DNA of 13,401 nucleotides. Origin: a virus. Lineage: Duplodnaviria > Heunggongvirae > Uroviricota > Caudoviricetes. Positions 1 to 13,401 of this stretch are shown here, one piece after another. The stretch covers positions 1 through 13,401 of the IMG/VR virus record IMGVR_UViG_2737471844_000004, one strand, 5' to 3'. The notes under the pieces were generated by a model that saw nothing but the letters and a program-made list of their open reading frames with translations, did no database searches and was not told the DNA's origin. Position numbers and translations under genes: made by a program. Position 1 is the stretch's first letter; each line of letters opens with the position of its first letter.

Positions 1-51
1 ATGTGTTGTAAAATCAGTCGAAGCCTAACAAGTGTGAATGACCTTTTAACC

Positions 52-762
52 ATGACGCAAGTGTTCAATGTTTACTGTGATGAGTCCTGCCATTTAGAAA
101 ATGATGGTCAAAAAGCAATGGTGCTCGGGGCTGTTTGGTGTCCTCTCAATAAGAGGTTTGGTATTGCTAATCGAATACGAGAGATAAAGCTCAAACATGG
201 CTTGGACCCACGTTTTGAAGTCAAATGGACTAAGGTTGGGGCTTCTAAAATTGAGTTTTATAAAGATTTGGTGGATTACTTCTTTGATGATGATGATCTT
301 CATTTCCGGGGATTGGTTATTCCTGACAAAACTCAGCTAAAGCATGATGATTTCGATCAAAGTCATGATGACTGGTACTATAAAATGTATTTTGTCATGT
401 TGAAAACTATTTTTGAGCCAGGAAGTCAATATAGAGTCTTTATTGATATAAAAGATACTCTTGGTCATGAGAAAATACTCAAGTTACATGATGTATTATG
501 TAACAATGCATATGATTTCTCTAGGAAAACAATTTCTAATATTAAGAGAATTAATTCTCATGAAGCTGAGCAATTGCAACTTGCTGATTTATTAATAGGT
601 GCCCTTAGTTATATGCATAGAGGTTTAAATGAAAGTAAGCCAAAACTTTTATTAATTAACAGGATCAGAGAAAGGAGCGGCTATAATCTAACCCAAAATA
701 CTTTGCTTCGAGAGTTAAAGTTTAATCTAATGATCTGGCAATCTAATGGGGGATGTCGATGA
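52..762 (+). CDS. DUF3800-like protein (family call from motif memory); start could instead be ATG at 1
   Basis: ORF 1..762; N-terminal MTQVFNVYCDES and later QLQLADLLIGALSY match the two motifs I recall for DUF3800 (N-terminal DES, C-terminal QxADxL). AT-rich. Stop TGA 760-762 overlaps next start (ATGA). Confidence 0.65.
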   Translation: MTQVFNVYCDESCHLENDGQKAMVLGAVWCPLNKRFGIANRIREIKLKHGLDPRFEVKWTKVGASKIEFYKDLVDYFFDDDDLHFRGLVIPDKTQLKHDDFDQSHDDWYYKMYFVMLKTIFEPGSQYRVFIDIKDTLGHEKILKLHDVLCNNAYDFSRKTISNIKRINSHEAEQLQLADLLIGALSYMHRGLNESKPKLLLINRIRERSGYNLTQNTLLRELKFNLMIWQSNGGCR

Positions 763-1244
763 GTCCGGTTTGGCTACCCGAGCAAATTTTATTAGAACAC
801 TATCAAGGTGAGTGGGAGGCCTACTTTGATAGTGTTTATCAAGCATTCCACCGCGATTTCGTTTTATCTAAACCAGTTTTTCGTGGCGTTCGATTAGGAT
901 TGAAACGTCATCCAGAATATGAAGGTAAATCAGCCACATTCTGGCATATGATTAGCACTGGAAATGTAGAAAGTGAGAGAGTGCCGGATATTCGGCGCTG
1001 CGAAAGAATTAGTTGGCCTAAGCCTGTTATAGATAATAGTACCGATACCTGTTTGAAAGTCTGGGCTGAGCCCAAAGGTAAAAATAGACGTATCCACATT
1101 TGGTTTGAGGATGAGGGATATCTGGTGGTTTTAGATGATAGAGGCGATTTTATGCTTCCATGGACAGCGTTTTATATTGAACATAACCATCAACGAAAGA
1201 AATACAATAAGAGATGGGAAAGACACAATCATAACGGTATTTGA
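759..1244 (+). CDS. Hypothetical protein, translationally coupled partner of the DUF3800-like gene
   Basis: ORF 753..1244; ATG at 759 has GGGGGA 6 nt upstream and overlaps the upstream stop. No recognisable motif. AT-rich like its partner. Confidence 0.6.
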   Translation: MSPVWLPEQILLEHYQGEWEAYFDSVYQAFHRDFVLSKPVFRGVRLGLKRHPEYEGKSATFWHMISTGNVESERVPDIRRCERISWPKPVIDNSTDTCLKVWAEPKGKNRRIHIWFEDEGYLVVLDDRGDFMLPWTAFYIEHNHQRKKYNKRWERHNHNGI

Positions 1245-1548: not shown

Positions 1549-1575
1549 GCAAAAAGCCTTACCCGTAGGCTTAAC
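1549..1575 (-). terminator. Possible intrinsic terminator downstream of the 59-aa gene
   Basis: On the minus strand AAGCCT-acgggta-AGGCTT followed by TTTGC; the stem is short (6 bp). Confidence 0.3.
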
Positions 1576-1611
1576 GTTTGGCTTGGCTGTAGTCTTACCG
1601 TAACGCTCCGC

Positions 1612-1791
1612 TCACCGTCGTGGCCTGTCCGGTTTCTTCCACTGATACGGCCTCACATCATCCTGCTGGTGGCGTTCCTGTTGCAGCACAACGGAAACAG
1701 GCGCTGAACACCTGTTAATTTTGCTTGCTGGTTGTTTGATTTCGGCAATGCTGCGGATCATCTCCAGCATATCGGCTTCGGTGATGGTCAT
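1612..1791 (-). CDS. Small hypothetical protein (59 aa), below the ORF-track cutoff
   Basis: Hand translation of the minus strand: MTITEADMLEMIRSIAEIKQPASKINRCSAPVSVVLQQERHQQDDVRPYQWKKPDRPRR, stop TGA (plus 1612-1614). SD AAGGTG 6 nt upstream of the ATG (plus 1789-1791). Confidence 0.4.
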   Translation of the reverse strand: MTITEADMLEMIRSIAEIKQPASKINRCSAPVSVVLQQERHQQDDVRPYQWKKPDRPRR

Positions 1792-1823
1792 GATTTACAC
1801 CTTAGGAAATCTTAGGGGGCTGG

Positions 1824-2080
1824 TTGACACTTTCCGGCTTAAGACCTTAACAAACCTTAACATCGCAGGTTGACACACTTGACACTTTTTCGCGAAAAAC
1901 CTTATCAAACCTTAGCATTTCTAAGCATGGCAACTTGACACTTTTCGCGATTTTTTTCGGCTTTTTGACGTGGTAAATCTGGCGCAAGGCCAGTAACGGC
2001 GGGGCTTACAGCGAGGTTGACACTTTTTCGCGTTCAGAGTGTAAAGTGTCAACCCGGCAAGCTGCTCAACTTGACACTTT
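1824..2080. repeat. Array of TTGACAC(TTTTTCGCG) motifs with a second ACCTTA(A/T)CAAACCTTA family; candidate packaging-recognition or protein-binding site
   Basis: TTGACAC at 1824, 1870, 1879, 1935, 2017 and 2071, an inverted copy GTGTCAA at 2046-2052, and a TTGACG variant at 1965. Three copies carry the extension TTTT(T)CGCG. CCTTAACAAACCTTAAC at 1844 and CCTTATCAAACCTTAGC at 1891. Spacing is irregular. Lies directly 3' of the TerS-like gene. Confidence 0.6.
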
Positions 2081-2086
2081 TTGATG

Positions 2087-2614
2087 TCATTGATGGTCTG
2101 ATTTTTCCCATTCAGCTAGGGCGTTTAGCCCGGCTTCACTCCATGATTCCAGTTCATCGGCATAATCACCTGCAACATAGCAGAGTTCGCAACGCAGCAT
2201 ACTAATTGCCAGCCTGGCATTACCTCGCAAATTGTATTGTTCAAAGTAATGCTGCCCGTCGCAATCCTCAAGGCAGATAGCACCATCATCAAGAAATTGC
2301 ACTTCCCAGCCTAATTCCCCGGCTGCATCCAGCACACGCTGCTGTATGCCCTCGTCCGTTGCTGGCGCAGGAATTTTACCGTCTCTGGCCTTAACTGCTT
2401 TCCAGAACTCGCCCCACGTCATTTCCAGCGTTCTCTCTGGCCACATTTCAGAAACTGTGTCTTTTCCCTGTGCTGGTGGGCTGTTCCGCTGCTCTGTCGC
2501 TTCCACATCGATTTTTTTACCGGACATGACCACTTCGCCTTTCTCGATCCAGTCGTAAACTGTCTGGCGGCTTACGCCTTTGTGTTTGGCATATTCTGCC
2601 TTACTCATCAGCAT
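2087..2614 (-). CDS. TerS-like / Nu1-like HTH DNA-binding protein with C-terminal Cys4 cluster; candidate packaging-redirecting (Rpp-like) protein
   Basis: ORF 2087..2614. N-terminus MSKAEYAKHKGVSRQTVYDWIEKG has the HTH pattern of small terminase N-termini. C-terminal C-x3-C-x23-C-x2-C (CLEDC ... CELC). Last gene of the operon, 4 nt after the upstream stop. Confidence 0.55.
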   Translation of the reverse strand: MLMSKAEYAKHKGVSRQTVYDWIEKGEVVMSGKKIDVEATEQRNSPPAQGKDTVSEMWPERTLEMTWGEFWKAVKARDGKIPAPATDEGIQQRVLDAAGELGWEVQFLDDGAICLEDCDGQHYFEQYNLRGNARLAISMLRCELCYVAGDYADELESWSEAGLNALAEWEKSDHQ

Positions 2615-2620
2615 TATGAC

Positions 2621-3292
2621 TCACCCTTCTTTTTCCAGTTGAGCCAGCCGCCCGGATATTTCTTCCAGTTTTTCCAGGGCTGGCTTGCAGGCCGCATCAA
2701 TAACGTCCCGGACCATTCCGGCAAGCTGTTCTTCTGCTGTCGGCGTTGTTACTTCCACGCCCGATGGTTTCCCGCCCTTATCCCAAACACCAAGCGGCAC
2801 GAGCGCAACGTGATCGATAAGAAATGGCGTACCCTCAATAAAAAAATTGTCCTCGCCCATTACATCAGGAACTTCTGCCCCACCTGAGGCACCACAAAAC
2901 ACAACCGACGGACTGGTGGATACCTCCCCTCGGGCTTTCTGGATGTAATCGATGATTTCCTGTCCGTAAATCCGGCATACGCCCCACACCTCGTCACCGC
3001 GAATATACGGCAACATGACGGTGCCAATAATGCGCGACCGTTCGCCCACGTCTTCAAGGGTTTTGCTTTCGGGATGGTCGATAATGACGGGTACTCCGGC
3101 GCAACGTTCCAGGAACTGCGGATTGAGATAAGTTTGCGGTGAACGCCAGACAAATTCTTTTTCTTCGGCGCGGTAGGCCATTCCGGTTCCTGTGATACGC
3201 AGGTTAACCAGCCACATGTTGGAAAACTGATAAGGCGACGGTAGCTGTCCGTCCCGAATCTGCTTCGCCGCCTCAATTTCTGTTAAAAGCAT
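2621..3292 (-). CDS. Hypothetical protein; weak prohead-protease-like pattern plus C-terminal coiled-coil-like tail
   Basis: ORF 2621..3292. VPVIIDHPES ... IIGTV ... GEVSTSPSVVF loosely recalls HK97-type prohead protease His and Ser regions; C-terminus PALEKLEEISGRLAQLEKEG looks scaffold-like. Weak RBS. Confidence 0.55.
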   Translation of the reverse strand: MLLTEIEAAKQIRDGQLPSPYQFSNMWLVNLRITGTGMAYRAEEKEFVWRSPQTYLNPQFLERCAGVPVIIDHPESKTLEDVGERSRIIGTVMLPYIRGDEVWGVCRIYGQEIIDYIQKARGEVSTSPSVVFCGASGGAEVPDVMGEDNFFIEGTPFLIDHVALVPLGVWDKGGKPSGVEVTTPTAEEQLAGMVRDVIDAACKPALEKLEEISGRLAQLEKEG

Positions 3293-3356
3293 AATGTTAT
3301 CCGGTTATAAGCAATAAGCCCCGCCAAATCCGGCAGGGCTGAACTCAGCACGTTTT

Positions 3357-3935
3357 TCATGCCCCCGCGAGGCTTGCAACGTTAATTTTGACCAGGCGAC
3401 GGGGAGGGATTTTGAAGGCGTTCAGCCAGACGTTCGGATCTCCCTGATATTCAGTAATACGACGACCAGCTTCATCCATTCTTACGGTTTTACCCAAATG
3501 GCCCGGCGTGTTTTCCACGGCCCACTGAGCACTTTCCTGAGCAGCCTTGTAAATCTGATCTTCCAGCACCGCCAGCGTTGCAGAATCTGAAACGGAACGA
3601 ATATCCACATCACTGAATTTTTTAGCCAGCTTCTGTGCGCCAATTAATGCACGTTTGCGGTAATCCATCGACTTTTCACCAGCAAACGGGGCCGGAGCGC
3701 GACGGCCCATATTGCTGTATGCGGAATCCGCTTTAGCCTGGGCTTCTGCCAGTGAGGATTCATCTTCGACTGACGCGACGATGTTTTGATTAGCGTTATC
3801 CTCTTTTATGAAATCCTGTGCGGGGATCGCATTCAGAATTTCGATAATCTCCTGCGGAGTGCTTCCCTGCGACTCTGACAGAGCGTTAACCACCTCCATC
3901 AGTTTTAATCGCAAATCTTCTTTGCTTGCTGGCAT
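3357..3935 (-). CDS. Hypothetical protein (192 aa from internal ATG), morphogenesis/packaging module by position
   Basis: ORF 3357..3944 opens at GTG; the ATG at plus 3933-3935 follows GAGAGGTGG at good spacing. No family recognised. Confidence 0.6.
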   Translation of the reverse strand: MPASKEDLRLKLMEVVNALSESQGSTPQEIIEILNAIPAQDFIKEDNANQNIVASVEDESSLAEAQAKADSAYSNMGRRAPAPFAGEKSMDYRKRALIGAQKLAKKFSDVDIRSVSDSATLAVLEDQIYKAAQESAQWAVENTPGHLGKTVRMDEAGRRITEYQGDPNVWLNAFKIPPRRLVKINVASLAGA

Positions 3936-3974
3936 TTTTACCACCTCTCTTTTTTCACCAAAAAATCACGACCA

Positions 3975-4148
3975 TCAGGCCGGACGTTCTACGGGATAAA
4001 GCGCCCGCTGCATTAAACGCCGGGCGACCTCATGAATGCTCGGAGCAATCCCCAGCGGAGAATTGCGGCGTTCCTCGTCCTGGATGCGCTGTAATGCTTC
4101 AATCTGATCACGAGCGAGTAAAACGGGTTTCACGCTGGCTTTTCTCAT
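3975..4148 (-). CDS. Small putative DNA-binding protein (RHH-like pattern), first gene of the module
   Basis: ORF 3975..4172; preferred start MRKASVK at 4148 with AGGAGA 7 nt upstream. Pattern beta-strand KPVLLARDQ followed by two helices. Confidence 0.5.
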   Translation of the reverse strand: MRKASVKPVLLARDQIEALQRIQDEERRNSPLGIAPSIHEVARRLMQRALYPVERPA

Positions 4149-4270
4149 AGTCATATCTCCTGAACAAAACAATGATTATGATTGCACAAACTGAAATGAC
4201 GATCTACATCATTGCAATTTATGAAACAATAACGCATGATGATCGCGTTCTTCCCATTGACTTCAATCAC

Positions 4271-4313
4271 CTGCAAAAATAAAACCCGCAACACTTCTGG
4301 CTGCGGGTTTTTT
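4271..4313. terminator. Bidirectional rho-independent terminator
   Basis: AACCCGCA-(11 nt loop)-TGCGGGTT at 4283-4309, flanked by an A-run (4271-4282) on one side and a T-run (4308-4313) on the other, so it has a U-tract on either strand. Confidence 0.7.
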
Positions 4314-4321
4314 ACTGGCAC

Positions 4322-4345
4322 AAAAAAGCCGGGAAAAATCCCGGC
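4322..4345 (-). terminator. Intrinsic terminator directly after the PerC-like gene
   Basis: GCCGGG-aaaaat-CCCGGC at 4328-4345, preceded on the plus strand by A6 (4322-4327), which gives a U-run on the minus-strand transcript. Sits 6 nt past the stop at 4351. Confidence 0.65.
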
Positions 4346-4350
4346 CTCCG

Positions 4351-4638
4351 TCACTGACTGCAATTTTTCGATCCAGGGTATTTCCTGAATGCCTTACCAT
4401 TGGGCTGATGTAATCCCATCCCGGCATGTGCCCGGCTGATGGTTTCGCGCATCTCCCCGAAATTATCCTGCCGTGCTGGTGGGCGTGCTGCCTTGCGGAT
4501 ACATTCCGCGCGACGTTTTGCCGCCTGTTCCCGTGCCTTGTCATCATTCGCCAGCATGATGACCTCAGCCCACCGCGCCGCCGCTCTCCGGTACAGACCA
4601 CGCGCTTCCAGTGCTTCCGCTTTGCTGTCGTGAATCAT
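4351..4638 (-). CDS. PerC-family-like transcriptional regulator
   Basis: ORF 4351..4638. N-terminus MIHDSKAEALEARGLYRRAAARWAEV and KRRAECIRKA match the PerC/Pch signature as I recall it. Start ATG overlaps the FinO-like stop (ATGA). Confidence 0.6.
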   Translation of the reverse strand: MIHDSKAEALEARGLYRRAAARWAEVIMLANDDKAREQAAKRRAECIRKAARPPARQDNFGEMRETISRAHAGMGLHQPNGKAFRKYPGSKNCSQ

Positions 4639-5231
4639 GCGCCTGTTTTCTCCTTTGCTGCCCGGCGCTGACGTTTGCGCTTCTCATTCAGCGCCACCAG
4701 CCGCGTTTCTGCGTCCTGTTGTTCCTGTGGTGTCACCTCGCCGCACGGCTGGCCTTTCAGGTCGTAGCGTACCCCACCAGCCATTAAGGCGCGGTAATAG
4801 CGCGGACACTGCGCATAAGATGCCAGCGTCGCACGTAATGCCCCTGGCCCGAATGCCAGCCCCCTGACGGCGAGATCCTGCATCAGGTCGTCGAATATCC
4901 CCACCTTAAGCGGCTTCGGTGCTTCCCGGCTGAATAATTCAGGCCACAACTCAGTGAGGCGGTTAATGCGCCTGCGGTTTTTTCGCTGCCGTTTGGTCAT
5001 ATGCCGCCACGGTGTCGCCCCTGTGGGCTTCTGCTGCGCTTTCTGGTTACCGGGCATCACTTTATGCGCCGATGTGGTTTTATCCTGCTGCTGCTGCTGC
5101 TGCTGCTGCTGCGCCGCCTGCGTCGTTTTCTGCGGCGTGCCGTAAATGCCTTTCGGTTTTCTGTTAATAGTCAGCTTAGTCATGCTTTGCCCCATCGTTT
5201 TTACTGATTGTTTCATATCCGGTACTTTCAT
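4635..5231 (-). CDS. FinO/ProQ-domain RNA-binding protein with N-terminal poly-Q tract; start codon uncertain
   Basis: ORF 4635..5231. LWPELFSREAPKPLKVGIFDDLMQDL ... YDLKGQPCGEVTPQEQQDAETRL parallels the ProQ N-terminal/FinO domain. Q9 run encoded by the repeat at 5086-5112. No clear SD at the first ATG; internal ATGs are possible starts. Confidence 0.7.
   Translation of the reverse strand: MKVPDMKQSVKTMGQSMTKLTINRKPKGIYGTPQKTTQAAQQQQQQQQQDKTTSAHKVMPGNQKAQQKPTGATPWRHMTKRQRKNRRRINRLTELWPELFSREAPKPLKVGIFDDLMQDLAVRGLAFGPGALRATLASYAQCPRYYRALMAGGVRYDLKGQPCGEVTPQEQQDAETRLVALNEKRKRQRRAAKEKTGA
5086..5112. repeat. Perfect (CTG)9 / (CAG)9 trinucleotide repeat, in frame within the FinO-like CDS
   Basis: Plus strand reads CTG nine times from 5086 to 5112. 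Confidence 0.95.
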
Positions 5232-5236
5232 CTTCT

Positions 5237-5522
5237 GGGTAGAGGGGTAGACGGCGGGTAGATAACAAAAAATAGTCCTCTACCCACTTAACTTAATGAA
5301 AAAAAACAACTTTCACACATTAGGTAGAGGGGTAGACCGTAAAATAGAAAAGTTTGAAACTTACTTTCTTACAATCTGTGTTTTCCTCTCGCTGTATAAA
5401 AAGTTTTTTGAGCGGGGATGTTGTCTACCCCTCTACCCACTTCTCTGAAAGCCTTGTGCTACGAGGGATTCAGCGGGTAGACAATAAAAAATCACCATCT
5501 ACCCTGTGTCTACCCATCTACC
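5237..5522. repeat. Iteron cluster flanking AT-rich spacers; candidate replication origin
   Basis: About 12 copies of GGTAGA(N)/TCTACC in both orientations (5237-5264, 5277-5287, 5321-5338, 5423-5440, 5473-5483, 5497-5522), including the inverted pair AGGTAGAGGGGTAGAC / GTCTACCCCTCTACCC around an AT-rich core. Immediately 3' of the primase-helicase gene. Confidence 0.65.
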
Positions 5523-5539
5523 TGTTACGGGTATTACTC

Positions 5540-7288
5540 TTATAAAAATTCCTCGGTTCTCTCCGTTTGTATAACGTTGGTTTGTATTCGTCCTTTAAAA
5601 CCTCTTGTCAGGTATTCAGCCCCATATTCTCTTGCTGCTGACTTCATGGCCTTACCAAAATCACCGACACTTAATATTTCTTCTTCCCCCATATACTCCA
5701 TAAAGGCGAGATATAGTCTGTACAGGCTTGTACGCGGATTAAGATCAGTTAATCTCTTACCGCCTCCCATCATCATCCCATGCGGTTCATCAAGAAATGC
5801 AAGCGCCGCACATAACCCAATGACAGGATCAGTTTCCTGTTTTATTTTCAGAGCTTCGGCACCGTCGCGCTGCTCCAACAATAATTCCCGTGCTTTTTCT
5901 GGATCGGAAAAGTTAGCCAGTAATCGACGAATAATGACAGGTATTTCCGCCGCTATCTTTTGCGGTAACTCTTTATCCTTTTCGGTCTCCCTTACAATAT
6001 TATCGAACCGAAAAATTACACGTCGACGCGCAACGCCTCCGGCCCGTTCGGTGAATGTCATCGGCACGTTATTTGTTGCCAGCACGACGGACCTGATAAT
6101 TGTTGTGAAACGCTTTTCATATTTCGGGTTAATTTCAACTGGATCTCCACCCGTTATTTTTTTGATGCCGGATCCTTCACCTGTATATTTCGGCTGGTCT
6201 GCCAGGACAATAAGACGACTTCCGACAACCTGCGCACGCCCGCCAGCATCATCAAGCGATGTCATTTCAGCGCTTACCGTGTTCTGTTTCCCTGCCAGAA
6301 GGGTGGCTATGTGCGTGATTGTGCTCTTGCCGCTCCCGCCTTCCCCTGTGGCCTCAATAAACATCTGCCAGTCGTACCGGTTCGCCATAATCATGTACAG
6401 CGCGGCGCATATACGCATCATCTTTCGCGGGTCTTTTCCTGCGGCGTGATCAAGCCATTTATGAAAGTTTGGCGCGTTGTCGCGGATGTTCTCCCCTGGT
6501 ACTGGTGGCGTGTACTCAATGCCGTTATGCGTGGTGATCCAGTTATCCGGCGAGTGCGGGGAAAATTCGCCAGTTTTCATGTCAAGCACGCCATTAGAGA
6601 ACGGCAATAAATCACCTGACGGTTCCCCCATTGGCCTGGCCATAACTTTTAAAGCATCCACAGCATTACTTATTGCTCTCCGACTAAACGATGTTCCGTT
6701 TTCTTCGTAAATAGCCACCATTTCACGACTAAGATCCAGTGTGCTTACCGGAACCCAAAAATCATCGCGCCAGACGTGGACAACCTCACTCTCCTGATTC
6801 ATTGCTACATCCTGAAATCGTTCAGCTAAAAGTTTTGCCCTTTGGCTGTCCGCCATTCTGGAAAGAGATATTTTGTGTTTTTTCTCGGTCCTTCCTGACA
6901 GAATTTCTCCGCGCTCAGCCTGTTCGCGGATCCGTTGCAGGTAGTCGCGCCAGTTCTCCGGTTCCTGGTCGGTGATGCCTTTGTATAATTTCGCCTCCTG
7001 TACGCCAGCCAGCGCCAGCTTTTCAGCGATAGTATTGATCTGGATTGGCTCTATCTCCCCCGCGATATAGACACGCGCAAAACGGCGTTTCTCGTCAATA
7101 ATGCGGATATTCGCCAGGTCTGCCAGTTGCTTTGGCCCCAGGTAAACAGGAGGCACGTTATCGCCGTGTTTTCGTCCTTCACTTTCAATCCAGTGTTGAG
7201 CATGGGCGTAAGCATCCGTCCCGGCAAAAATGATTACCTCAGTGAATTTATCCTTCGGCTGATATTTTAGACTCGGTGCGTTTTTCAC
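5540..7288 (-). CDS. Primase / SF3 (D5-like) helicase replication initiator, P4 alpha-like
   Basis: ORF 5540..7288, 582 aa. Walker A GEGGSGKST, Walker B-like LIVLAD, motif C VLATNN. GTG start overlaps upstream stop (GTGA) with GGGAGG 6 nt upstream. Confidence 0.85.
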   Translation of the reverse strand: MKNAPSLKYQPKDKFTEVIIFAGTDAYAHAQHWIESEGRKHGDNVPPVYLGPKQLADLANIRIIDEKRRFARVYIAGEIEPIQINTIAEKLALAGVQEAKLYKGITDQEPENWRDYLQRIREQAERGEILSGRTEKKHKISLSRMADSQRAKLLAERFQDVAMNQESEVVHVWRDDFWVPVSTLDLSREMVAIYEENGTSFSRRAISNAVDALKVMARPMGEPSGDLLPFSNGVLDMKTGEFSPHSPDNWITTHNGIEYTPPVPGENIRDNAPNFHKWLDHAAGKDPRKMMRICAALYMIMANRYDWQMFIEATGEGGSGKSTITHIATLLAGKQNTVSAEMTSLDDAGGRAQVVGSRLIVLADQPKYTGEGSGIKKITGGDPVEINPKYEKRFTTIIRSVVLATNNVPMTFTERAGGVARRRVIFRFDNIVRETEKDKELPQKIAAEIPVIIRRLLANFSDPEKARELLLEQRDGAEALKIKQETDPVIGLCAALAFLDEPHGMMMGGGKRLTDLNPRTSLYRLYLAFMEYMGEEEILSVGDFGKAMKSAAREYGAEYLTRGFKGRIQTNVIQTERTEEFL

Positions 7289-7575
7289 TTCTTACCTCCC
7301 GCAACCAACATTGCCCGGATTTTTTTTATATTCGTGGCTGCACGTCTCGCCACTGCCTGTTGTTTGTTTTCCACCAGAATAAAATCACGATCAAACTGAC
7401 GGCGCGGCATTACGCAGTCATATTCGTAAGCCTCACGGCGGTAGGTGATATTGCCTGGCGTAACGTGACGAATAACCACCCGTCCCCCGCGTCTGGTGTC
7501 CCGGAAAATATCACCGGGGCGGATTTCAGGCCGAGAGAGGCCGCTGGCAGTAAAGCCAGAATTTTTCTTTTTCAT
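7285..7575 (-). CDS. Hypothetical basic protein (96 aa)
   Basis: ORF 7285..7575; ATG 4 nt after the upstream stop; coupled to the primase gene. Confidence 0.6.
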   Translation of the reverse strand: MKKKNSGFTASGLSRPEIRPGDIFRDTRRGGRVVIRHVTPGNITYRREAYEYDCVMPRRQFDRDFILVENKQQAVARRAATNIKKIRAMLVAGGKK

Positions 7576-7579
7576 GGTT

Positions 7580-7780
7580 TTATTTTCCTGTCAGCAGTTC
7601 CGGTTTTATTTCCGCACGAATACAAAGTTCAGAAAAAAATTCAGGAGAACCAACAATCTCATTACTTTTCAGTCGGCATTGTGATTTCACTTTCCCTTTA
7701 TCCAGGTAAACCAGTACGCGTCCGGTGAAATCATCTGGCACATTAAGCACTACGGGTACATGCACTTCATGATTATGCAT
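7580..7780 (-). CDS. Small hypothetical protein (66 aa), FTGR-motif family
   Basis: ORF 7580..7780; GGAGGATG SD; start ATGCATAA overlaps upstream stop. Shares DDFTGRVLVYLDKGKV ... PEF motif with both halves of the 7999..8364 protein. Confidence 0.6.
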   Translation of the reverse strand: MHNHEVHVPVVLNVPDDFTGRVLVYLDKGKVKSQCRLKSNEIVGSPEFFSELCIRAEIKPELLTGK

Positions 7781-8006
7781 GGCTTACATCCTCCGTGAAT
7801 TTTCTTCTGTAACGCGCCTCTGCCACATATTCCGCATAGTCCGACGCAATACTAAGAATCATTTCACCCTCTGACTTGTAGCCACTGGTATTGATAAGAA
7901 AATATGCAGCTTTCATCATGTCAGCAACGCTCAACAATGCGCCCGATGTATCTTCCGGTGCGCCATCAAATTCCCGTTTCAGGGAATTAAAACGATCATC
8001 ACGCAT
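7773..8006 (-). CDS. Small hypothetical protein (77 aa)
   Basis: ORF 7773..8006; G-rich SD; start ATGCGTGA overlaps upstream stop by 8 nt. Confidence 0.6.
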   Translation of the reverse strand: MRDDRFNSLKREFDGAPEDTSGALLSVADMMKAAYFLINTSGYKSEGEMILSIASDYAEYVAEARYRRKFTEDVSHA

Positions 8007-8364
8007 GTTTACCCCCCTGAATGACCTGATAACCGCAACTGGTCAGCAACTCGATAAATTCCGGCAGTGTGCCGAAACAGCAATCATCACGCAGCCGTTC
8101 GCAGGATACCTCGACGCCGTTTTCGTAGTGACTCACCATACGTCCGGTAAAATGCAGATCATCATCGTGATGGCTCGTTGACGGCTTAATCAGTCGCGCA
8201 CGTTCCGCCAGTTCCAGCAATGCTTCAACGCTTCCGGCAATTGCACCATCCGGCAGGTGGTAATTACGCACTATGCGCCCGTTCTCCACATGGACCAGTA
8301 GCTGCCCGGTAAATTTCTCGTCAAACTGAATGCTGTTAAGGTCAGAAATTGACAGGTTATGCAT
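7999..8364 (-). CDS. Hypothetical protein with internal tandem duplication of an FTG(Q/R)-x-LV-x-x-E-N-G motif domain
   Basis: ORF 7999..8382; preferred start MHNLSIS at 8364 with AGGAGG upstream, overlapping the upstream stop (ATGCATAA). FTGQLLVHVENGRIV and FTGRMVSHYENGVEV repeat within the protein. Confidence 0.6.
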   Translation of the reverse strand: MHNLSISDLNSIQFDEKFTGQLLVHVENGRIVRNYHLPDGAIAGSVEALLELAERARLIKPSTSHHDDDLHFTGRMVSHYENGVEVSCERLRDDCCFGTLPEFIELLTSCGYQVIQGGKHA

Positions 8365-8581
8365 GGTGCACCTCCTGCACATCAGCCATGATAATTTTTC
8401 CGGCCTTATCCAGTGCCTGATCGGCTTTTAGCTGCACAAATGCTAAATAATGGGAGATGCATTCTGATTCTCTGGCTGCGTGTTTATGCGCCACACCAGC
8501 GATAGCAGAAATCTCAATAAGTGAATCCATCAGCGTTTTGATAGCGTCTACCGCTGCATCAGGCCATGTTGCATTACACAT
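8357..8581 (-). CDS. Small hypothetical protein (74 aa)
   Basis: ORF 8357..8581; AGGAGGTGG SD; start ATGTGTAA overlaps upstream stop by 8 nt. Confidence 0.6.
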   Translation of the reverse strand: MCNATWPDAAVDAIKTLMDSLIEISAIAGVAHKHAARESECISHYLAFVQLKADQALDKAGKIIMADVQEVHHA

Positions 8582-8939
8582 GTTCCACCTCCTGGCGAAT
8601 ACGGGCGGCGAATACCATCACGCAGCCATCAGGAGATTGCTGACGTGCTTCCTGTTCGCTGGTGGCCTCGATGTGAATTACGCGCGGTTGTGCCGTGCTC
8701 AGGGCGATAAAACGCCAGATAAAATTGTTCTCGCATTTCTGAATAAACAGCGTGTTTTCTTCGCGCCCTTTCCATGTTGCCGAGATATAGCCCATGTCAT
8801 TGAGCATCTCGCAGGCATCAACCAGCGTATCAGCAGCTACGTGTACAGTGTTTTTACCGTCAGCTATGCAATCACGGTGCACCGCCAGGAAGGTGTATAT
8901 AAATTTAGGGTGAGTTTGGGTATGCTGTGTTCCAGCCAT
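8574..8939 (-). CDS. Hypothetical protein (121 aa), first gene of the leftward operon
   Basis: Internal ATG (plus 8937-8939) of the long minus-strand open frame, with GAGGT 7 nt upstream and a promoter/operator region immediately 5'. Natural-looking sequence MAGTQHTQTHPKFIYTF... Confidence 0.6.
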   Translation of the reverse strand: MAGTQHTQTHPKFIYTFLAVHRDCIADGKNTVHVAADTLVDACEMLNDMGYISATWKGREENTLFIQKCENNFIWRFIALSTAQPRVIHIEATSEQEARQQSPDGCVMVFAARIRQEVEHV

Positions 8940-9028
8940 AATCGTTACCTCATTTAACGGTTTGGTTAGACGCCCCGCTACTGCCGCAAACAGTTCGGGG
9001 CGTTGTCGTTTACATCCTCTTACTGAGG

Positions 9029-9104
9029 TGTGATTTAAATTAAATTTAACTGAATCACAGGTCAAGTATTTTTTGTGATTCTTTTTTGTGTATACTGAAT
9101 CACA
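9029..9104. promoter_or_regulatory. Divergent promoter region with two TGTGATT-N17-AATCACA operator-like palindromes
   Basis: Palindromes at 9029-9059 and 9074-9104. Plus-strand -10-like TATACT at 9091-9096 lies inside the second; minus-strand -35 TTGACC (9060-9065) and -10 TAATTT (9037-9042) overlap the first. Confidence 0.55.
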
Positions 9105-9126
9105 TCTTTTGTTTAGGAGAATGCAC

Positions 9127-9432
9127 ATGGCAAAAAACACTATCAACGACAAATCAAAACAGATTTCAATTCGTATCCCACATGATGCTTTTGAAGGCAT
9201 GGAATCCGTAAAACTGGACGGTGAAAGCAACGCCGGATTCATAGTAACCGCCATGCGCGGTGAGATCGCCCGCCGCCAGGCAGAAGGAAGCGGAGAAAAT
9301 CCCCTGGTTTCTTCGCTCGATGCGCTGGCGCAGGTGGAAAAAATCGGAGTCAAAGCTGCCGAGGAGATCGGGCAGCTCGTCACCGTCGCACGTGAAGAAC
9401 TCCAGCGCCGCAAGGCCAAAGAATCAGAATAA
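9127..9432 (+). CDS. Small putative DNA-binding regulator (RHH-like); candidate island repressor
   Basis: ORF 9088..9432; ATG at 9127 with AGGAGA 6 nt upstream. Pattern ISIRIP (beta), HDAFEGMESVKL, NAGFIVTAMRGEIARR (helices). The only plus-strand gene in the backbone. Confidence 0.65.
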   Translation: MAKNTINDKSKQISIRIPHDAFEGMESVKLDGESNAGFIVTAMRGEIARRQAEGSGENPLVSSLDALAQVEKIGVKAAEEIGQLVTVAREELQRRKAKESE

Positions 9433-9667
9433 TAACTATCATCGCCGTGGTGTGAGGAACTCCGGCGCATTGCTTTACAGGTACACAGAATGACCAACAA
9501 AGAATCAACCAATACACCATCACCGGCACGGAAAAGACGGCGCAGAAAGATAGAGCACGAATCAGAAAGATTCGCGCCATGTGCTTTTGCCCTTGAGCAA
9601 TTCCTTAAAGAGTACAGGCGCACAAAAATGGGATCGCATACCTGGAAAACATCGCGGCATGGCAATG

Positions 9668-10106
9668 TTAAAGAGCATGAATAGCCCACCAGCAAGCCAG
9701 CACACTGATCACATTGCCCACCAGCCGCAAATCTGGCATTGTTGGCAATGTGTTCAAGTGTGTAGCTTTCCCACTGGTGGCCCTCTGCAGTCGCCTTTGT
9801 TTTATCCAGAACGAAATCAGACATCAGATTGATCAGCACCTGGTGACCTGACAAAATCGCATCAGTCACGCCACCAGCAAAATTTTTTGCTTTCCGGACA
9901 GCGTGGCCAACGGCATTTTGCAGCGAAATATTCTGCATTTCTGGCGTGCTGTAGTAACGGTGATCAGTGCCTTCACTCTGTGCGACCACAACGCTATAAT
10001 CTGCCTCGTAGACAGTAAGCAATATGGCGCAGTAGGCTATTCGTTCACAAAGGCGCTCCGGCAACGGGGCGCTTTCTCTTTTTGTAACGGTCAGAGCGTT
10101 ACACAT
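9668..10106 (-). CDS. Hypothetical ORF with well-defined 5' end but unresolved 3' end; possibly frameshifted
   Basis: ATG at 10106 overlaps the AntA-like stop by 8 nt (ATGTGTAA) and starts MCNA like the gene at 8581. First ~130 aa look protein-like, then Cys/Ser-rich junk; no in-frame stop until 8574. An alternate frame ends at plus 9668. Confidence 0.3.
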
Positions 10107-10899
10107 GGCTGTTTTCCTCCATGCGACGGGCTAACCAACGCTGCGAAAGGCGAATTAATTCAGCTTTCCGCTGGTGGTAGTCCTGGCCTAACTCAATCAG
10201 CGTGATATTGCTCTGCTCAAGGTAAGAAAGGTGCTCAAGCTGCAACACGCTCATGTGGTCGCGTGGTTCACCTGTAATGCCGTTCGCCTGCGCCCACTGT
10301 TTTGCAGTCATGCCACCCAGCACGATACGCGCCAGCATGTTCGCTTCCGTGGTGTAGTGGTGCTGGAGTGTGTTTTTACCCAGTTCAGCCCGGTACGCCT
10401 CCAGCGCGGCACACATTGGCTTAAAGTAGCTGGCAACTGTGATACGGGCTTTCAGTTCCCGGCGTAACGCTGCGGAACGTACAGGCGCAACCTTGTGTAG
10501 CTCCTCCTCGCATTTGATAAAGTACTGACGAACGGCGCGCCCCTGTTCGGTGCGCTCGACCATCGCCAGTTCTTTCGCCATGTTGATAGTGCTCAGGTAG
10601 TCGTGCTCTACACGTTGGCGAGATTTTGCGCTCACCGGATTGGGGGAGGTCAAATTTTCTACGAATTCAAAATCCACGCCCTTTTTAAATCCGTACTCAT
10701 CAATGCGTCCTTTAATCCAAGTTGTGAAATCACGCTTCACACCCAGCGCCTTATGCAACGCTCTGGCGCTAACAATATTGGTTTCACGCCCGCCAATAAC
10801 GCCGGAAATAACCGGGATAATTTCGCCGAAATTTTGTTGGCTCTGGTTTTCAGGCCGAACGAAGCCCTGCCCCTGTACGGGCGTTTTTCGCAGTTTCAT
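10099..10899 (-). CDS. AntA/AntB-type phage antirepressor-like protein
   Basis: ORF 10099..10899. IPVISGVIGGRETNIVSARALHKALGVKRDFTTWIKGRIDEYGF ... MAKELAMVERTEQGRAVRQYFIKCEEEL matches the AntA N-terminal pattern I recall. SD AGGAG 5 nt upstream. Confidence 0.6.
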   Translation of the reverse strand: MKLRKTPVQGQGFVRPENQSQQNFGEIIPVISGVIGGRETNIVSARALHKALGVKRDFTTWIKGRIDEYGFKKGVDFEFVENLTSPNPVSAKSRQRVEHDYLSTINMAKELAMVERTEQGRAVRQYFIKCEEELHKVAPVRSAALRRELKARITVASYFKPMCAALEAYRAELGKNTLQHHYTTEANMLARIVLGGMTAKQWAQANGITGEPRDHMSVLQLEHLSYLEQSNITLIELGQDYHQRKAELIRLSQRWLARRMEENSHV

Positions 10900-10977
10900 A
10901 AAAACTCCTGCTATCGAATTAAGTTACTTTTTATTTGCTGGTGGATAGCTGGGGCTTCTGGCCCCGTAGCTGTTTTA

Positions 10978-11196
10978 TCAGGCTGATGTGTTTCGGCGTT
11001 CTTCCAGCCAGCGATTAACCTCTACCGCATCGAATGCAGTGCTTTTCTCACCCAGTTTGATGGGCTTAGGCATCTTCCCGCTACGCACCCAACGATCGAG
11101 CGTTGATAAGCTGGTACCCAGCAATTCAGCCAGGCGATAGCGGCGGATATAGCCAGTTGCAGGGATTGCGGTTTGAAGTATTGGTTGGTTTTTCAT
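10978..11196 (-). CDS. alpA: AlpA-family DNA-binding regulator (excisionase-like)
   Basis: ORF 10978..11289; probable start MKNQPIL at 11196. RRYRLAELLGTSLSTLDRWVRSGKMPKPIKLG ... VEVNRWLEERR is the typical AlpA signature. Confidence 0.8.
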   Translation of the reverse strand: MKNQPILQTAIPATGYIRRYRLAELLGTSLSTLDRWVRSGKMPKPIKLGEKSTAFDAVEVNRWLEERRNTSA

Positions 11197-11308
11197 ATGC
11201 CCCATTACCTTTGTTGTTGGTTTGTGATTCGTAATAGGGGCATTAAATAACAAATGAAATGATGTGTGTGTGAGTTTTAGAAAAAACACTGTGACTTTTC
11301 TTATTTCA

Positions 11309-12091
11309 CTATCTAAAACGCTCTCGCCAGCTTTTCCAAGTGTTCTTATCTGGTTGTGGGATTACAATGCCTTTTTGAGCACCTATTTGTGCAATTTTTT
11401 TATTTAACTTGTTAGGCGGCAAAGATATTATCTCATTGTCTGTTAATCCGGCAATTCTTAATAATCCATATATCATTTTAAATTGATGTATTGTTAATCT
11501 TGGTAACTTGTGATTTTCTTTTTTTATAGTGTTGTTTATGGAGTAAATTGGAAATCCATTTGTTATTGATTTATAAAGGTTGTCAATGTGCTCTCTGGTT
11601 ATTAATAATGAATCAGGTGTAATCTTAATGTTGCCGCTTGTTTTTGCATGGCATGAAAAAATAAATGTGGGATTCGCAGTGCGACGTGAAAGCGGTATGG
11701 ATGTATTCATAGAGATAGTTTTGTTTCTTACTATAGTCTCTTGAATATCAAAAACTCCAGAAACCTTTGCCTCAAAAATAACACCATTTTCTTTTATTTC
11801 ATCACTATATTCATGAATAATTATGCCAAGAGAGGAAATTTCTTTTTTGATGAGAAAAGAAATAAAATCAATATAGTCTTCATCCTTTGGCCATGTAAAA
11901 TCACGATAACCAAAATACCCCTCACAGTAAGCATTTTTTATTTTTGTGGCAAAATTAATTCTGTTAATATCCTGCCAATGCCATAAATCATCTATCTCAC
12001 ATTCTAAAATTTGAGCTGCTCTATCTAAAGAGCAGAATTCTAATGGAGGTAATTGTTTTTTTTGCCATATTGTTTCATTAATATTTGTCAT
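11309..12091 (-). CDS. Hypothetical protein (260 aa), AT-rich orphan cargo gene between int and alpA
   Basis: ORF 11309..12091. Markedly AT-rich with Asn/Ile/Lys-rich protein composition, unlike the flanking int and alpA. No motif recognised; weak RBS. Confidence 0.6.
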   Translation of the reverse strand: MTNINETIWQKKQLPPLEFCSLDRAAQILECEIDDLWHWQDINRINFATKIKNAYCEGYFGYRDFTWPKDEDYIDFISFLIKKEISSLGIIIHEYSDEIKENGVIFEAKVSGVFDIQETIVRNKTISMNTSIPLSRRTANPTFIFSCHAKTSGNIKITPDSLLITREHIDNLYKSITNGFPIYSINNTIKKENHKLPRLTIHQFKMIYGLLRIAGLTDNEIISLPPNKLNKKIAQIGAQKGIVIPQPDKNTWKSWRERFR

Positions 12092-12147
12092 GATTGCACT
12101 ACCGTTATGAAAAAATATATTCGTTAATGAATTAGCCTTAATGTCTA

Positions 12148-13401
12148 TTATTTATTAGATTGCGTGATGTCAGAACATATCATGTTTTCTAAATTCACCA
12201 GCAAATCAGTCCACTGTGCCAGCGCCGCTTTGCGCTCATCAAAATATTGATGGCGGTTATAAATGCCCTCTACGCCTTTTATGCGGTGGTTAAGGCATCG
12301 TTCAGCAACGATCGGGTCAACTCCCAATGCTGCTAAATGTGTTCGTGCTGTTCGCCGGAAGTCGTGAATTGTAAAGTTGGGGACGTTCGGCATTTCTGCT
12401 CTGACTTTTGCCAATGCAACAGGAAGGGTGCTTTCCTGGATGTGAGGGATCATTCTGTGCTGCATTTTTCTGGCAGGTAATACCCATGCGCTATTGCATG
12501 AAAATGTGTGCAATTCTCGCAACCATTCTATGGTCGCTGGTGGTAATGGTATGTCGATAGCATCGCCATTTTTAGTTCGTTGTTCTGGTAGATGCCAAAT
12601 CGCGCCATCTAAGTCGAATTCATCCCACCTGGCGGCGCATAACTCCATTTTTCTGACACACAATGCTAAGAGCAACTTAAAGGTTAATTCGTTCTGGCGG
12701 CTGAATCCTTTGGCTTTACGCATGGCCTGAAAAAATTGGATTAATTCGTCACGGTTCAGCCAGCGATCACGAGATAATTCTTTCCCACCAGCATCTGATA
12801 CTTCAAAAGCTGAGCAGGGGTTAACCTCCAAAGCAAGGCGTTTAATACCGTAGTCAAATATTCGACGTGTCCACCGAAGAACGTCAGTAGCAATTGTTGG
12901 AGCGCCTCTATCAACAATGCTTTTAAGCATGGCATCAATATGGCGTGGTTTTACATCTTCAACCTTCATGTGGCCTATGGCAGGATTTATGTCTTTATCA
13001 ATGCGCCTGCGGAGAATATCTGGGTGTTTCCATCGGGGAAGTATTTGCCGTGCAAAGTATTCGGCGGCAAGTTCAGAAACATGCAGCGCGTTTTTTTCAG
13101 CTTCTATTTTTGCCAGTGCTTCGGCTTTACGCTGCTGTTTTTCTGCGGCTACGTCATATCCCAAAGCAACTCGTGCGGAAAGTTCTTTTGCCAGTTCCCT
13201 GGCTTTTGATAACGATAATTCAGAATATGAACCAATAAGCATGGCACGAGATTTTCCTGCCAGTTTATATCGAAACCGCCATGTCGGGGATCTATCCACC
13301 TCTCTATACCGGAGATATAGCCCACCACCATCAGCACGACCTTCGAAATGTTCTCCGGCTTTTATCCATGCGCGGATCTGCATATCTGTGAGTTTTGGCA
13401 T
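12148..13401 (-). CDS. int: P4-type tyrosine integrase (site-specific recombinase)
   Basis: ORF 12148..13401, 417 aa. N-terminus MPKLTDMQIRAWIKAGEH...DGGGLYLRY and C-terminal HDFRRTARTHLAALG...ERCLNH...IYNRHQY carry the R...HxxR...Y catalytic signature. ATG sits exactly at the window edge. Confidence 0.95.
   Translation of the reverse strand: MPKLTDMQIRAWIKAGEHFEGRADGGGLYLRYREVDRSPTWRFRYKLAGKSRAMLIGSYSELSLSKARELAKELSARVALGYDVAAEKQQRKAEALAKIEAEKNALHVSELAAEYFARQILPRWKHPDILRRRIDKDINPAIGHMKVEDVKPRHIDAMLKSIVDRGAPTIATDVLRWTRRIFDYGIKRLALEVNPCSAFEVSDAGGKELSRDRWLNRDELIQFFQAMRKAKGFSRQNELTFKLLLALCVRKMELCAARWDEFDLDGAIWHLPEQRTKNGDAIDIPLPPATIEWLRELHTFSCNSAWVLPARKMQHRMIPHIQESTLPVALAKVRAEMPNVPNFTIHDFRRTARTHLAALGVDPIVAERCLNHRIKGVEGIYNRHQYFDERKAALAQWTDLLVNLENMICSDITQSNK

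What the first reader, a model, noticed from the sequence alone, without database searches (positions are those of the whole stretch)
11309..12091. Strongly AT-rich orphan gene in the int-alpA slot
The 260-aa ORF between the integrase and alpA has clearly lower GC and different amino-acid composition than both neighbours, and no motif I can place. In P4-family elements the position between int and alpA is a known variable slot (yfjH in E. coli CP4-57 occupies it). This is a second candidate for exchangeable cargo such as an anti-phage or abortive-infection effector.
Basis: partly seen in the sequence, partly recalled or inferred. Interest (0 to 1): 0.6.

Follow-up and report, generated by a model that had tools for sequence, protein, structure and literature searches.

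The report
Integrase-linked hypervariable satellite gene
The AT-rich gene is real, but it is not an orphan or loose cargo: it belongs to a large, unnamed and fast-diverging protein family that sits between the integrase and alpA of phage-satellite islands in many gut bacteria, so it probably belongs to the island's excision and induction switch.

Summary
A 260-aa ORF (11309-12091, minus strand) lies between a P4-type integrase and alpA, at 31% GC against 46-52% for its neighbours.

- **Not an orphan.** An exhaustive profile search finds 391 cluster representatives in Enterobacterales and Aeromonas. All named ones are "hypothetical", and none matches Pfam, NCBIfam, PADLOC or a named PHROG.
- **Fixed position.** In 14 of the 15 independent lineages examined, the homologue lies int -> X -> alpA, on one strand. 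The islands differ in attachment site and replication genes.
- **Moves as a block.** The window's backbone is 98.8% identical in islands that carry another int module, and similarity ends at the 3' end of alpA.
- **Low GC is a family trait.** It holds in 10 of 11 loci.
- **Fast divergence.** Integrases 83-86% identical flank X alleles only 22-38% identical. Other E. coli int types carry unrelated genes in the slot.

AlphaFold (pLDDT 85) gives a small HTH-like N-domain, a variable alpha/beta middle and a basic helical C-domain. No solved or viral structure resembles it.

The closest precedent is the int-overlapping or int-contiguous gene of Vibrio PICMI satellites, which is needed for excision. 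The best reading is an integrase-coupled accessory or specificity factor. A defence role is not excluded.

The parts
11309..12091 (-). X: a 260-aa protein of an unnamed integrase-linked family. Residues ~16-47 form a conserved HTH-like N-domain with the signature P-L-E-Y-C-x3-R-A-A-x-L-L-x-C-E-x2-D-x2-H-W. Residues ~48-160 form a hypervariable alpha/beta middle carrying a G112-x-W114 motif. Residues 162-178 form a conserved helix and ~180-200 a linker. Residues 198-260 form a basic four-helix C-domain.
   Evidence: ORF. Family. Per-column conservation. AlphaFold2 model with pLDDT 85.3 and pTM 0.71. Domain charge: N-domain pI 5.6, C-domain pI 9.4. GC 0.312.
12148..13401 (-). int: a P4-type tyrosine integrase of 417 aa, and the upstream partner of X. 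In closely matching E. coli islands it integrates next to yicC.
   Evidence: Pfam Arm-DNA-bind_3, Phage_int_M and Phage_integrase. yicC lies beside int in E. coli A17 and EcPF14.
12092..12147 (-). 56-nt int-X spacer. No terminator-like site is predicted on the coding strand, which is compatible with int-X co-transcription. Co-transcription is an inference.
   Evidence: Sequence. Terminator scan.
10978..11196 (-). alpA: a 72-aa AlpA/excisionase-type HTH protein, and the downstream partner of X. The module break-point lies at its 3' end.
   Evidence: Pfam Phage_AlpA and HTH_17. RefSeq start codon. Backbone similarity to thrW-type islands stops at 10982.
11270..11309 (-). Palindrome followed by a T-run, directly after the X stop codon. 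It resembles a terminator and is weak in this window.
   Evidence: Alignment of X-alpA spacers from 7 loci. Fold of the window spacer.
11188..11251 (-). alpA leader hairpin. The core arms are 11231-11240 and 11200-11208. The 3' arm lies between the SD-like AGG and the alpA ATG, and the extended stem covers the ATG.
   Evidence: RNAalifold on 8 loci. Pair counts: 94% paired, 4 compensatory pairs, 0 of 500 shuffles. Window fold z = -2.8. Similar hairpins in distant alpA leaders. No Rfam match.

Best explanation
X is a component of the satellite's int-X-alpA module, not cargo. It belongs to the same positional class as the int-overlapping and int-contiguous genes (iolg/icg) of Vibrio PICMI satellites.

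**Proposed mechanism (inferred, not shown).** X is made together with Int from the att-proximal transcript. Its conserved small HTH-like N-domain anchors it to a conserved partner: Int, AlpA or their DNA sites. The basic C-terminal helical domain contacts nucleic acid. The hypervariable acidic middle domain sets specificity. When the helper phage switches on alpA, X acts with Int and AlpA to permit or tune excision and integration.

**What is shown.**
- The gene is real.
- The family is large.
- The synteny is fixed.
- The module is inherited as a unit.
- The predicted fold has three domains.
- Divergence is extreme relative to int.
- Low GC runs through the family.
For: - **Synteny.** The order int -> X -> alpA on one strand is found in the window, Leclercia, Pluralibacter, Raoultella, Klebsiella, E. 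coli 64A:C and eight metagenomic or other lineages. These differ in att site (yicC, mipA, der, nadA and others) and in replication genes. A degraded remnant still keeps int-X-alpA (L024).
- **Module exchange.** Window 1550-10982 is 98.8% identical in E. coli JNU, which carries a thrW-type int module. Similarity ends at the 3' end of alpA. In E. coli A17, int-X-alpA is 99.7% identical while the next gene and the replicase differ.
- **Family size.** 391 representatives at E <= 1e-3 and 157 at E <= 1e-10. Among 141 members there are four isolated sub-threshold Pfam hits (one member each, best E 0.0022), one marginal PADLOC hit and a few hits to unnamed PHROGs. tblastn finds nothing in 50,697 phage records.
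- **Fold.** pLDDT 85.3 with the 141-sequence alignment, against 39.7 with 5 sequences. The N-domain is the most conserved part.
- **Precedent.** In PICMI115 the gene between int and alpA is required for excision and transduction. PICMIs carry 13 unrelated families of such genes (PMC10803314).
Against: - No experiment bears on X itself.
- Homology to any PICMI iolg/icg could not be tested, so the link is positional only.
- The slot is empty in some satellites: three PICMI subfamilies have no such gene. No single family is therefore universally required.
- Extreme allelic divergence, tandem paralogues and low GC also fit an arms-race or defence gene.
- One Klebsiella family member stands alone, without int or alpA.
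Confidence: 0.45

Rival explanations
1. X is anti-phage or abortive-infection cargo carried in a variable slot. The variable middle domain would recognise a phage component, and the conserved ends would act as effector or scaffold.
For: - X diverges very fast relative to int. Integrases 83-86% identical pair with X alleles 22-38% identical, and in E. coli 64A:C the figures are int 86% and X 24%.
- Tandem diverged paralogues occur in two genera.
- Three unrelated families fill the slot in E. coli.
- GC is low.
- Satellites are known to carry defence genes, and this island has a PDC-M04 pair at its other end.
Against: - PADLOC gives one marginal hit among 141 members (E 4.6e-4), consistent with chance.
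- No enzymatic or toxin-like domain is detected. The fold searches return only weak, generic ferredoxin-like matches.
- The position is strictly fixed and the gene is inherited with int and alpA.
- The PICI and P4 defence hotspots described in the papers read lie elsewhere.
Confidence: 0.2
2. X is a helper-phage sensor and regulator of the alpA switch, functionally like the Stl repressor of Gram-positive SaPIs. It would hold alpA, or Int/AlpA activity, in check until its variable domain binds a helper-phage protein. Different alleles would then define which phages can induce the island.
For: - The architecture is a conserved anchor domain plus a hypervariable middle.
- X lies directly upstream of the alpA control region.
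- Gram-negative PICIs have no known repressor, and how the helper phage switches on alpA is unknown (PMC6092414).
- Tandem paralogues could widen the range of helpers.
Against: - No XRE-, CI- or Stl-type HTH is detected.
- X is co-directional with alpA, not divergent as stl is.
- Some satellites have nothing between int and alpA (three PICMI subfamilies), so this could not be the general induction route.
- No convincing operator-like repeats are found in the flanks.
Confidence: 0.2
3. The ORF is incidental. On this view the AT-rich DNA itself is what is selected, for example as an H-NS-bound silencer or spacer between int and alpA.
For: Low GC and low GC3 are conserved across the family in 10 of 11 loci.
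Against: - Protein-level conservation is clear, with near-invariant residues C20, R24, A25, L29, C31, D35, H38 and G112.
- A deep alignment gives a confident AlphaFold model.
- The frame is intact in all 12 E. coli copies, and the two differences between the window and EcPF14 are both synonymous.
Confidence: 0.03

Closest known systems
iolg / icg (int-overlapping gene / int-contiguous gene) of Vibrio PICMI satellites (Nat Commun 2024, PMC10803314)
   Same: Both are unknown-function genes lying between int and alpA on the same strand of a small phage satellite. Both classes contain many mutually unrelated or very divergent families. X is the contiguous type, with a 56-nt gap. The 216-aa gene that replaces X in related E. 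coli islands overlaps int by 4 nt, like iolg.
   Different: The satellite type (Enterobacterales PICI-like, about 13 kb, integrated at yicC) and the hosts differ. Sequence relatedness was not testable here. The excision requirement has been shown only for PICMI115 iolg. The three-domain architecture, family-wide low GC and tandem paralogues have not been described for iolg/icg.
AlpA / excisionase-type winged HTH (Pfam PF05930, PF12728; MerR superfamily)
   Different: None of these matches is significant. The domain is acidic and carries two near-invariant Cys plus Asp and His that AlpA lacks. X is also three to four times longer than AlpA.
Stl master repressors of SaPIs (Gram-positive PICIs)
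   Same: Both are encoded next to int, are of similar size, and have highly divergent alleles in otherwise related islands.
   Different: stl is transcribed divergently from the genes it controls and has a recognisable HTH repressor domain. X is co-directional with alpA and has no such domain.
yfjH of E. coli K-12 prophage CP4-57
   Same: It lies between intA and alpA.
   Different: It is on the opposite strand, is 318 aa long, and shows no similarity to the X family profile (E 0.2 in a five-sequence search).

Membership tests
PICMI-type iolg/icg class (gene between int and alpA) | Lies between int and alpA on the same strand | tested here: met
   Window and 13 further lineages.
PICMI-type iolg/icg class (gene between int and alpA) | Overlaps int by 1-13 nt (iolg) or is contiguous to it (icg) | tested here: met
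   Contiguous type. The gap is 56 nt in the window and 6-160 nt in homologous loci.
PICMI-type iolg/icg class (gene between int and alpA) | Required for satellite excision and transduction | not testable with these tools
   Shown only for PICMI115 iolg (PMC10803314).
PICMI-type iolg/icg class (gene between int and alpA) | Sequence relatedness to one of the 13 PICMI iolg/icg families | not tested
   The paper's supplements give locus tags only, and no Vibrio sequence was reachable. The 20 sampled clusters came from Enterobacterales and Aeromonas, with no Vibrio.
Known or candidate anti-phage defence systems (PADLOC-DB 2.0) | Match to a defence-protein profile | tested here: not met
   No hit for X. 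One of 141 members hits at E 4.6e-4, consistent with chance.
Known or candidate anti-phage defence systems (PADLOC-DB 2.0) | Located in a described satellite defence hotspot | tested here: not met
   The hotspots described lie downstream of pri in PICIs, between prim and fis in PICMIs, and between psu and int in P4. X lies between int and alpA.
Known or candidate anti-phage defence systems (PADLOC-DB 2.0) | Protects against phage when expressed | not testable with these tools
   Needs plaque assays.
AlpA / excisionase HTH (PF05930, PF12728) | Profile match above the family threshold | tested here: not met
   No Pfam hit for X. Among 141 members there are only four isolated sub-threshold hits, one member each, including one MerR_1 hit at E 0.0022.
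AlpA / excisionase HTH (PF05930, PF12728) | Profile-profile or fold similarity of the N-domain | tested here: inconclusive
SaPI Stl-type master repressor | Recognisable HTH repressor domain, transcribed divergently from the controlled operon | tested here: not met
   No HTH family hit. X is co-directional with alpA.
Gram-negative PICI (the host element) | int, alpA and a primase/replicase in one orientation, about 10-15 kb, integrated at a specific site | tested here: met
   int, alpA and a D5_N/DUF5906 primase. Island lies between yicC and dinD in closely matching E. coli genomes.
Gram-negative PICI (the host element) | Induced and packaged by a helper phage | not testable with these tools
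   No experimental data for this island were found.

The most novel reading that the evidence does not exclude
The X family is the missing helper-specificity determinant of Gram-negative PICI-like satellites. On this reading it is an Int/AlpA-anchored sensor whose hypervariable middle domain recognises a helper-phage or host cue and gates excision or alpA activation. Allelic diversity and tandem paralogues would then set which phages can mobilise the island.
Probability: 0.2. Interest if true: 0.8.

Novelty: new member of a known kind. Interest (0 to 1): 0.5.

Why it matters
How a helper phage switches on Gram-negative PICI-type satellites is an open question stated in the literature. So is how Int, AlpA and the int-adjacent gene cooperate in excision (PMC6092414, PMC10803314).

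This work shows that a large unnamed protein family occupies that position across Enterobacterales and Aeromonas. The family is the fastest-diverging part of the int-alpA module. It also occurs in tractable E. coli strains such as ABU 83972.

The question therefore becomes directly testable in E. coli. The family also warrants its own profile model, because current annotation calls every member "hypothetical".

Tried and rejected
**Profile libraries.** Pfam, NCBIfam, PADLOC and PHROGs gave nothing usable for X or for 141 family members. Domain consensus sequences searched against Pfam at E <= 10 gave only faint MerR_1 and NUMOD-like hints.

**Solved structures by sequence.** The only hits were designer PPR repeats, built up from many stretches of 3-5 bits each. 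I treat them as an artefact.

**Fold searches.**
- The first AlphaFold run, with 5 sequences, was unusable (pLDDT 39.7).
- Foldseek against PDB gave a best E of 0.06.
- Foldseek against BFVD gave a best E of 0.03.
- The afdb50 library was not available.

**Locus searches.** With the shallow alignment it returned only 2 loci per collection.

**Tests of homology with other slot genes.**
- 216-aa slot gene: BLASTP found nothing, the HMM scored 5.4 bits, and hhalign gave a probability of 0.3%. I rejected homology.
- yfjH: rejected.
- thrW-type slot gene: rejected.

**Operator or arm-site repeats around int, X and alpA.** Only short, chance-level matches in AT-rich DNA.

**Promoter scan.** The number of sites was not clearly above the shuffled expectation.

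**SEN1998 of ROD21 islands.** This is an AlpA-like directionality factor, not an X relative.

Full report
**1. The observation**

The window has an ATG-started ORF of 260 codons at 11309-12091 on the minus strand. Upstream on the same strand is a 417-aa tyrosine integrase at 12148-13401, with Arm-DNA-bind_3, Phage_int_M and Phage_integrase domains. Downstream is alpA at 10978-11196 (Phage_AlpA, E 3.4e-08). After alpA come an AntA-domain gene, small ORFs, DUF4222 and a D5_N/DUF5906 primase.

GC of the ORF is 0.312 (GC3 0.25), against 0.458 for int, 0.516 for alpA and 0.528 for antA. The protein is rich in Ile, Lys and Asn. Pfam, NCBIfam and PADLOC return nothing for it, and PHROGs only a sub-threshold hit. 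The description is correct.

**2. The element**

The int-X-alpA stretch is 98.7-99.7% identical in 12 of 5426 complete E. coli genomes. One of them is ABU 83972. In the two of these examined, the island lies between yicC and dinD.

The gene set is int, alpA, an Icd-like gene, DUF4222, primase, ProQ/FinO, PerC, DUF2213 and a distal accessory end. This is the layout of a Gram-negative PICI-type satellite, not of P4 itself. The far end of the window (1-1244) encodes a PDC-M04A/B pair with a DUF3800 domain, which is a candidate defence system.

**3. X is not an orphan**

The word-indexed search found only six clusters. Four of them are full-length relatives at 36-38% identity, from Leclercia, Raoultella, Pluralibacter and an unnamed source. 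Their N- and C-terminal blocks are invariant and the middle varies.

A profile of these sequences, scored against 1.84 billion representatives, found 391 proteins at E <= 1e-3 and 157 at E <= 1e-10. Most are 260-355 aa long. Named members come from Escherichia, Salmonella, Citrobacter, Cronobacter, Serratia, Klebsiella, Morganella, Providencia, Pectobacterium and Aeromonas. All are called "hypothetical".

Among 141 members, Pfam gives only four isolated sub-threshold hits (one member each, best E 0.0022), PADLOC gives one marginal hit, and 7 hit an unnamed PHROG. tblastn finds nothing in 50,697 phage records.

**4. Anatomy**

With the 141-sequence alignment, AlphaFold2 gives a mean pLDDT of 85.3 and pTM of 0.71. 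With five sequences it gave 39.7.

- **N-domain (about residues 16-47).** It has a strand-helix-helix pattern and is the most conserved part. C20, R24, A25, L29, C31, D35 and H38 are each conserved in at least 91% of members. It is acidic, with a median pI of 5.6.
- **Middle (about 48-160).** This is an alpha/beta domain whose length ranges from 82 to 186 residues. It has almost no conserved positions apart from G112-x-W114.
- **Helix (162-178) and linker (about 180-200).** The helix is conserved and the linker is modelled with lower confidence.
- **C-domain (198-260).** It is a four-helix domain and is basic, with a median pI of 9.4. Some members carry a different C-terminal domain.

hhalign places X residues 16-51 in register with the AlpA HTH, but without significance (E 0.092). 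The HTH assignment is therefore tentative.

**5. Context of the family**

I examined 15 independent lineages, ranging from close to very distant. In 14 of them the homologue lies immediately after a P4-type integrase and immediately before alpA, on the same strand, wherever the contig reaches far enough. These are:

- the window;
- Leclercia L002, Pluralibacter L003 and Raoultella L006;
- metagenomic or other loci L011, L012, L016, L018, L020, L024, L026 and L027;
- Klebsiella L030;
- E. coli 64A:C, L031.

The islands differ in attachment site (yicC, mipA, der, nadA and others) and in replication genes (D5 primase, Toprim/DUF927, and RepA in A17). A degraded remnant still keeps int-X-alpA (L024). 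Leclercia and Pluralibacter carry two tandem paralogues, 31% identical, in the slot.

The single exception is a K. pneumoniae member beside tRNA-Arg(CCT), with no int or alpA nearby. It is probably a remnant.

**6. The module moves as a block**

Window positions 1550-10982 are 98.8% identical in E. coli JNU and 97.1% identical in TUM9757. In both, similarity ends at the 3' end of alpA. Beyond that point those islands carry a thrW-type int, a 253- or 265-aa slot gene and another alpA.

Conversely, in A17 the int-X-alpA stretch is 99.7% identical to the window, while the next gene and the replicase differ. X therefore travels with int and alpA and is not exchanged on its own.

**7. The slot is nonetheless diverse**

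- About 277 E. coli genomes carry an int about 76% identical to the window's. In the two examined, the island also lies at yicC. Their slot gene is 216 aa and overlaps int by 4 nt.
- The 216-aa gene is unrelated to X. BLASTP finds nothing, the HMM scores 5.4 bits, and hhalign gives a probability of 0.3%.
- The thrW-type slot gene is a third unrelated family. Its two alleles are 66.7% identical, although their ints are 99.5% identical and their alpA genes are identical.
- Within the X family, ints that are 83-86% identical flank X alleles only 22-38% identical. In E. coli 64A:C the int is 86% identical to the window's, alpA 68% and X 24%.
- Over short time spans the pattern reverses. Between the window and EcPF14, X differs at 2 of 783 nt, both synonymous, while int differs at 33 of 1254 nt.

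The slot gene is thus the fastest-diverging member of the module over long spans, yet it is maintained intact.

**8. Low GC is a family trait**

In 10 of 11 loci the X homologue has lower GC than its neighbours. In the eight cases it is 0.10-0.23 below int and alpA, with GC3 of 0.25-0.41. The pattern holds in hosts from about 47% to 56% GC.

Low GC is therefore not evidence of recent foreign origin. I cannot explain it. Weak selection on codon usage in a gene expressed at a low level is one option, and selection for H-NS binding is another. Neither was tested.

**9. Comparison with what is known**

[quoted passage not shown] It is called iolg when it overlaps int and icg when it is contiguous. 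There are 13 unrelated families of them, all of unknown function. In PICMI115, iolg is required for excision and transduction. The authors propose that Int, AlpA and IOLG form the excision complex, and they pose that as an open question (PMC10803314). X fits the icg type, and the 216-aa E. coli gene fits the iolg type. Sequence relatedness could not be tested.
- **E. coli PICIs.** No repressor is known, and the route by which the helper phage activates alpA is unknown (PMC6092414).
- **Defence hotspots.** Those described for PICIs and P4-like elements in the papers I read lie elsewhere.
- **yfjH of CP4-57.** It is on the opposite strand and is unrelated.

**10. Verdict on mechanism**

The most likely reading (0.45) is an integrase-coupled accessory or specificity factor of the excision and induction module. 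The conserved N-domain would anchor it, the basic C-domain would bind nucleic acid, and the variable middle would set specificity. Only the position, inheritance, family and predicted fold are shown. The mechanism is inferred from the PICMI precedent.

A defence or abortive-infection role (0.2) and an Stl-like helper sensor (0.2) remain open. An incidental ORF is very unlikely (0.03).

**11. Seen in passing**

The X-alpA spacer carries a conserved hairpin directly 5' of the alpA start codon.

- The core arms are at 11231-11240 and 11200-11208.
- Across 8 loci, 94% of cells are paired and 4 of 9 pairs show compensatory changes. No shuffle out of 500 reached either measure, and sliding the partner columns drops pairing to 29-52%.
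- The window's own spacer folds with z = -2.8.
- Seven of nine distant alpA leaders, including that of K-12 CP4-57, fold into a similar long-loop hairpin that covers the SD-like purines. Individual significance varies.
- No Rfam family matches.
- A TTTAAT-like -10 element sits just 5' of the 5' arm.

One idea follows from the known fold-back inhibition of IS10 (from my own knowledge, not checked here). Read-through int-X transcripts could not translate alpA, whereas transcripts that start at the alpA promoter would lack the 5' arm and could be translated. This is an idea, not a result.

Noticed in passing
window 11188-11251 (minus strand); core arms 11231-11240 and 11200-11208: A conserved hairpin lies directly 5' of the alpA start codon. 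Its 3' arm sits between the SD-like purines and the ATG. Across 8 loci it is 94% paired with 4 compensatory pairs (0 of 500 shuffles). Similar hairpins appear in 7 of 9 distant alpA leaders, including K-12 CP4-57, and there is no Rfam match. A TTTAAT-like -10 element just 5' of the 5' arm suggests IS10-like fold-back inhibition of read-through transcripts.
   Followed up: partly
window 11270-11309 (minus strand): A palindrome followed by a T-run lies immediately after the X stop codon. It is clearer in the Leclercia, Pluralibacter, Raoultella and L011 homologues than in the window. It may be a weak terminator between the int-X unit and alpA.
   Followed up: partly
window 1-1244 (plus strand): Two overlapping genes match PADLOC candidate system PDC-M04A (8.3e-98) and PDC-M04B (8.8e-74). 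The first is annotated as DUF3800 in E. coli A17. This AT-rich pair at the distal end of the island is the more conventional candidate for defence cargo.
   Followed up: no
L002 10001-11569 and L003 10001-11572: Leclercia and Pluralibacter islands carry two tandem X paralogues, 31% identical to each other, between int and alpA.
   Followed up: partly
L021 5004-5825 (K. pneumoniae; the record is labelled a plasmid but carries chromosomal genes): A family member (139.8 bits to the X profile, with a different C-terminal part) stands alone near tRNA-Arg(CCT), with no int or alpA. Its GC is 0.47 against 0.59 for its neighbours. It is probably an island remnant that has been kept.
   Followed up: partly
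L028 2439-3200 and L029 4499-5296 (E. coli JNU and TUM9757, thrW-type islands): A third, unrelated slot gene (253 and 265 aa) is only 66.7% identical between two islands whose integrases are 99.5% identical and whose alpA genes are identical.
   Followed up: partly
L031 2980-3945 (E. coli 64A:C; record labelled a plasmid but 4.9 Mb long): A yicC island has an int 86% identical to the window's. Its X-family allele is only 24% identical, is 321 aa long and has a different C-terminal domain.
   Followed up: yes
window 11309-12091 compared with L008 14410-15192: Within E. coli, X is far less diverged than the adjacent int: 2 of 783 nt against 33 of 1254 nt between the window and EcPF14. This suggests a recent spread of one X allele across int variants.
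   Followed up: no
window 8574-10106 (minus strand): The 510-aa ORF listed here is probably not a gene. In matching E. coli islands this stretch is annotated as an Icd-like gene, an opposite-strand YlcI/YnfO gene and non-coding DNA.
   Followed up: no
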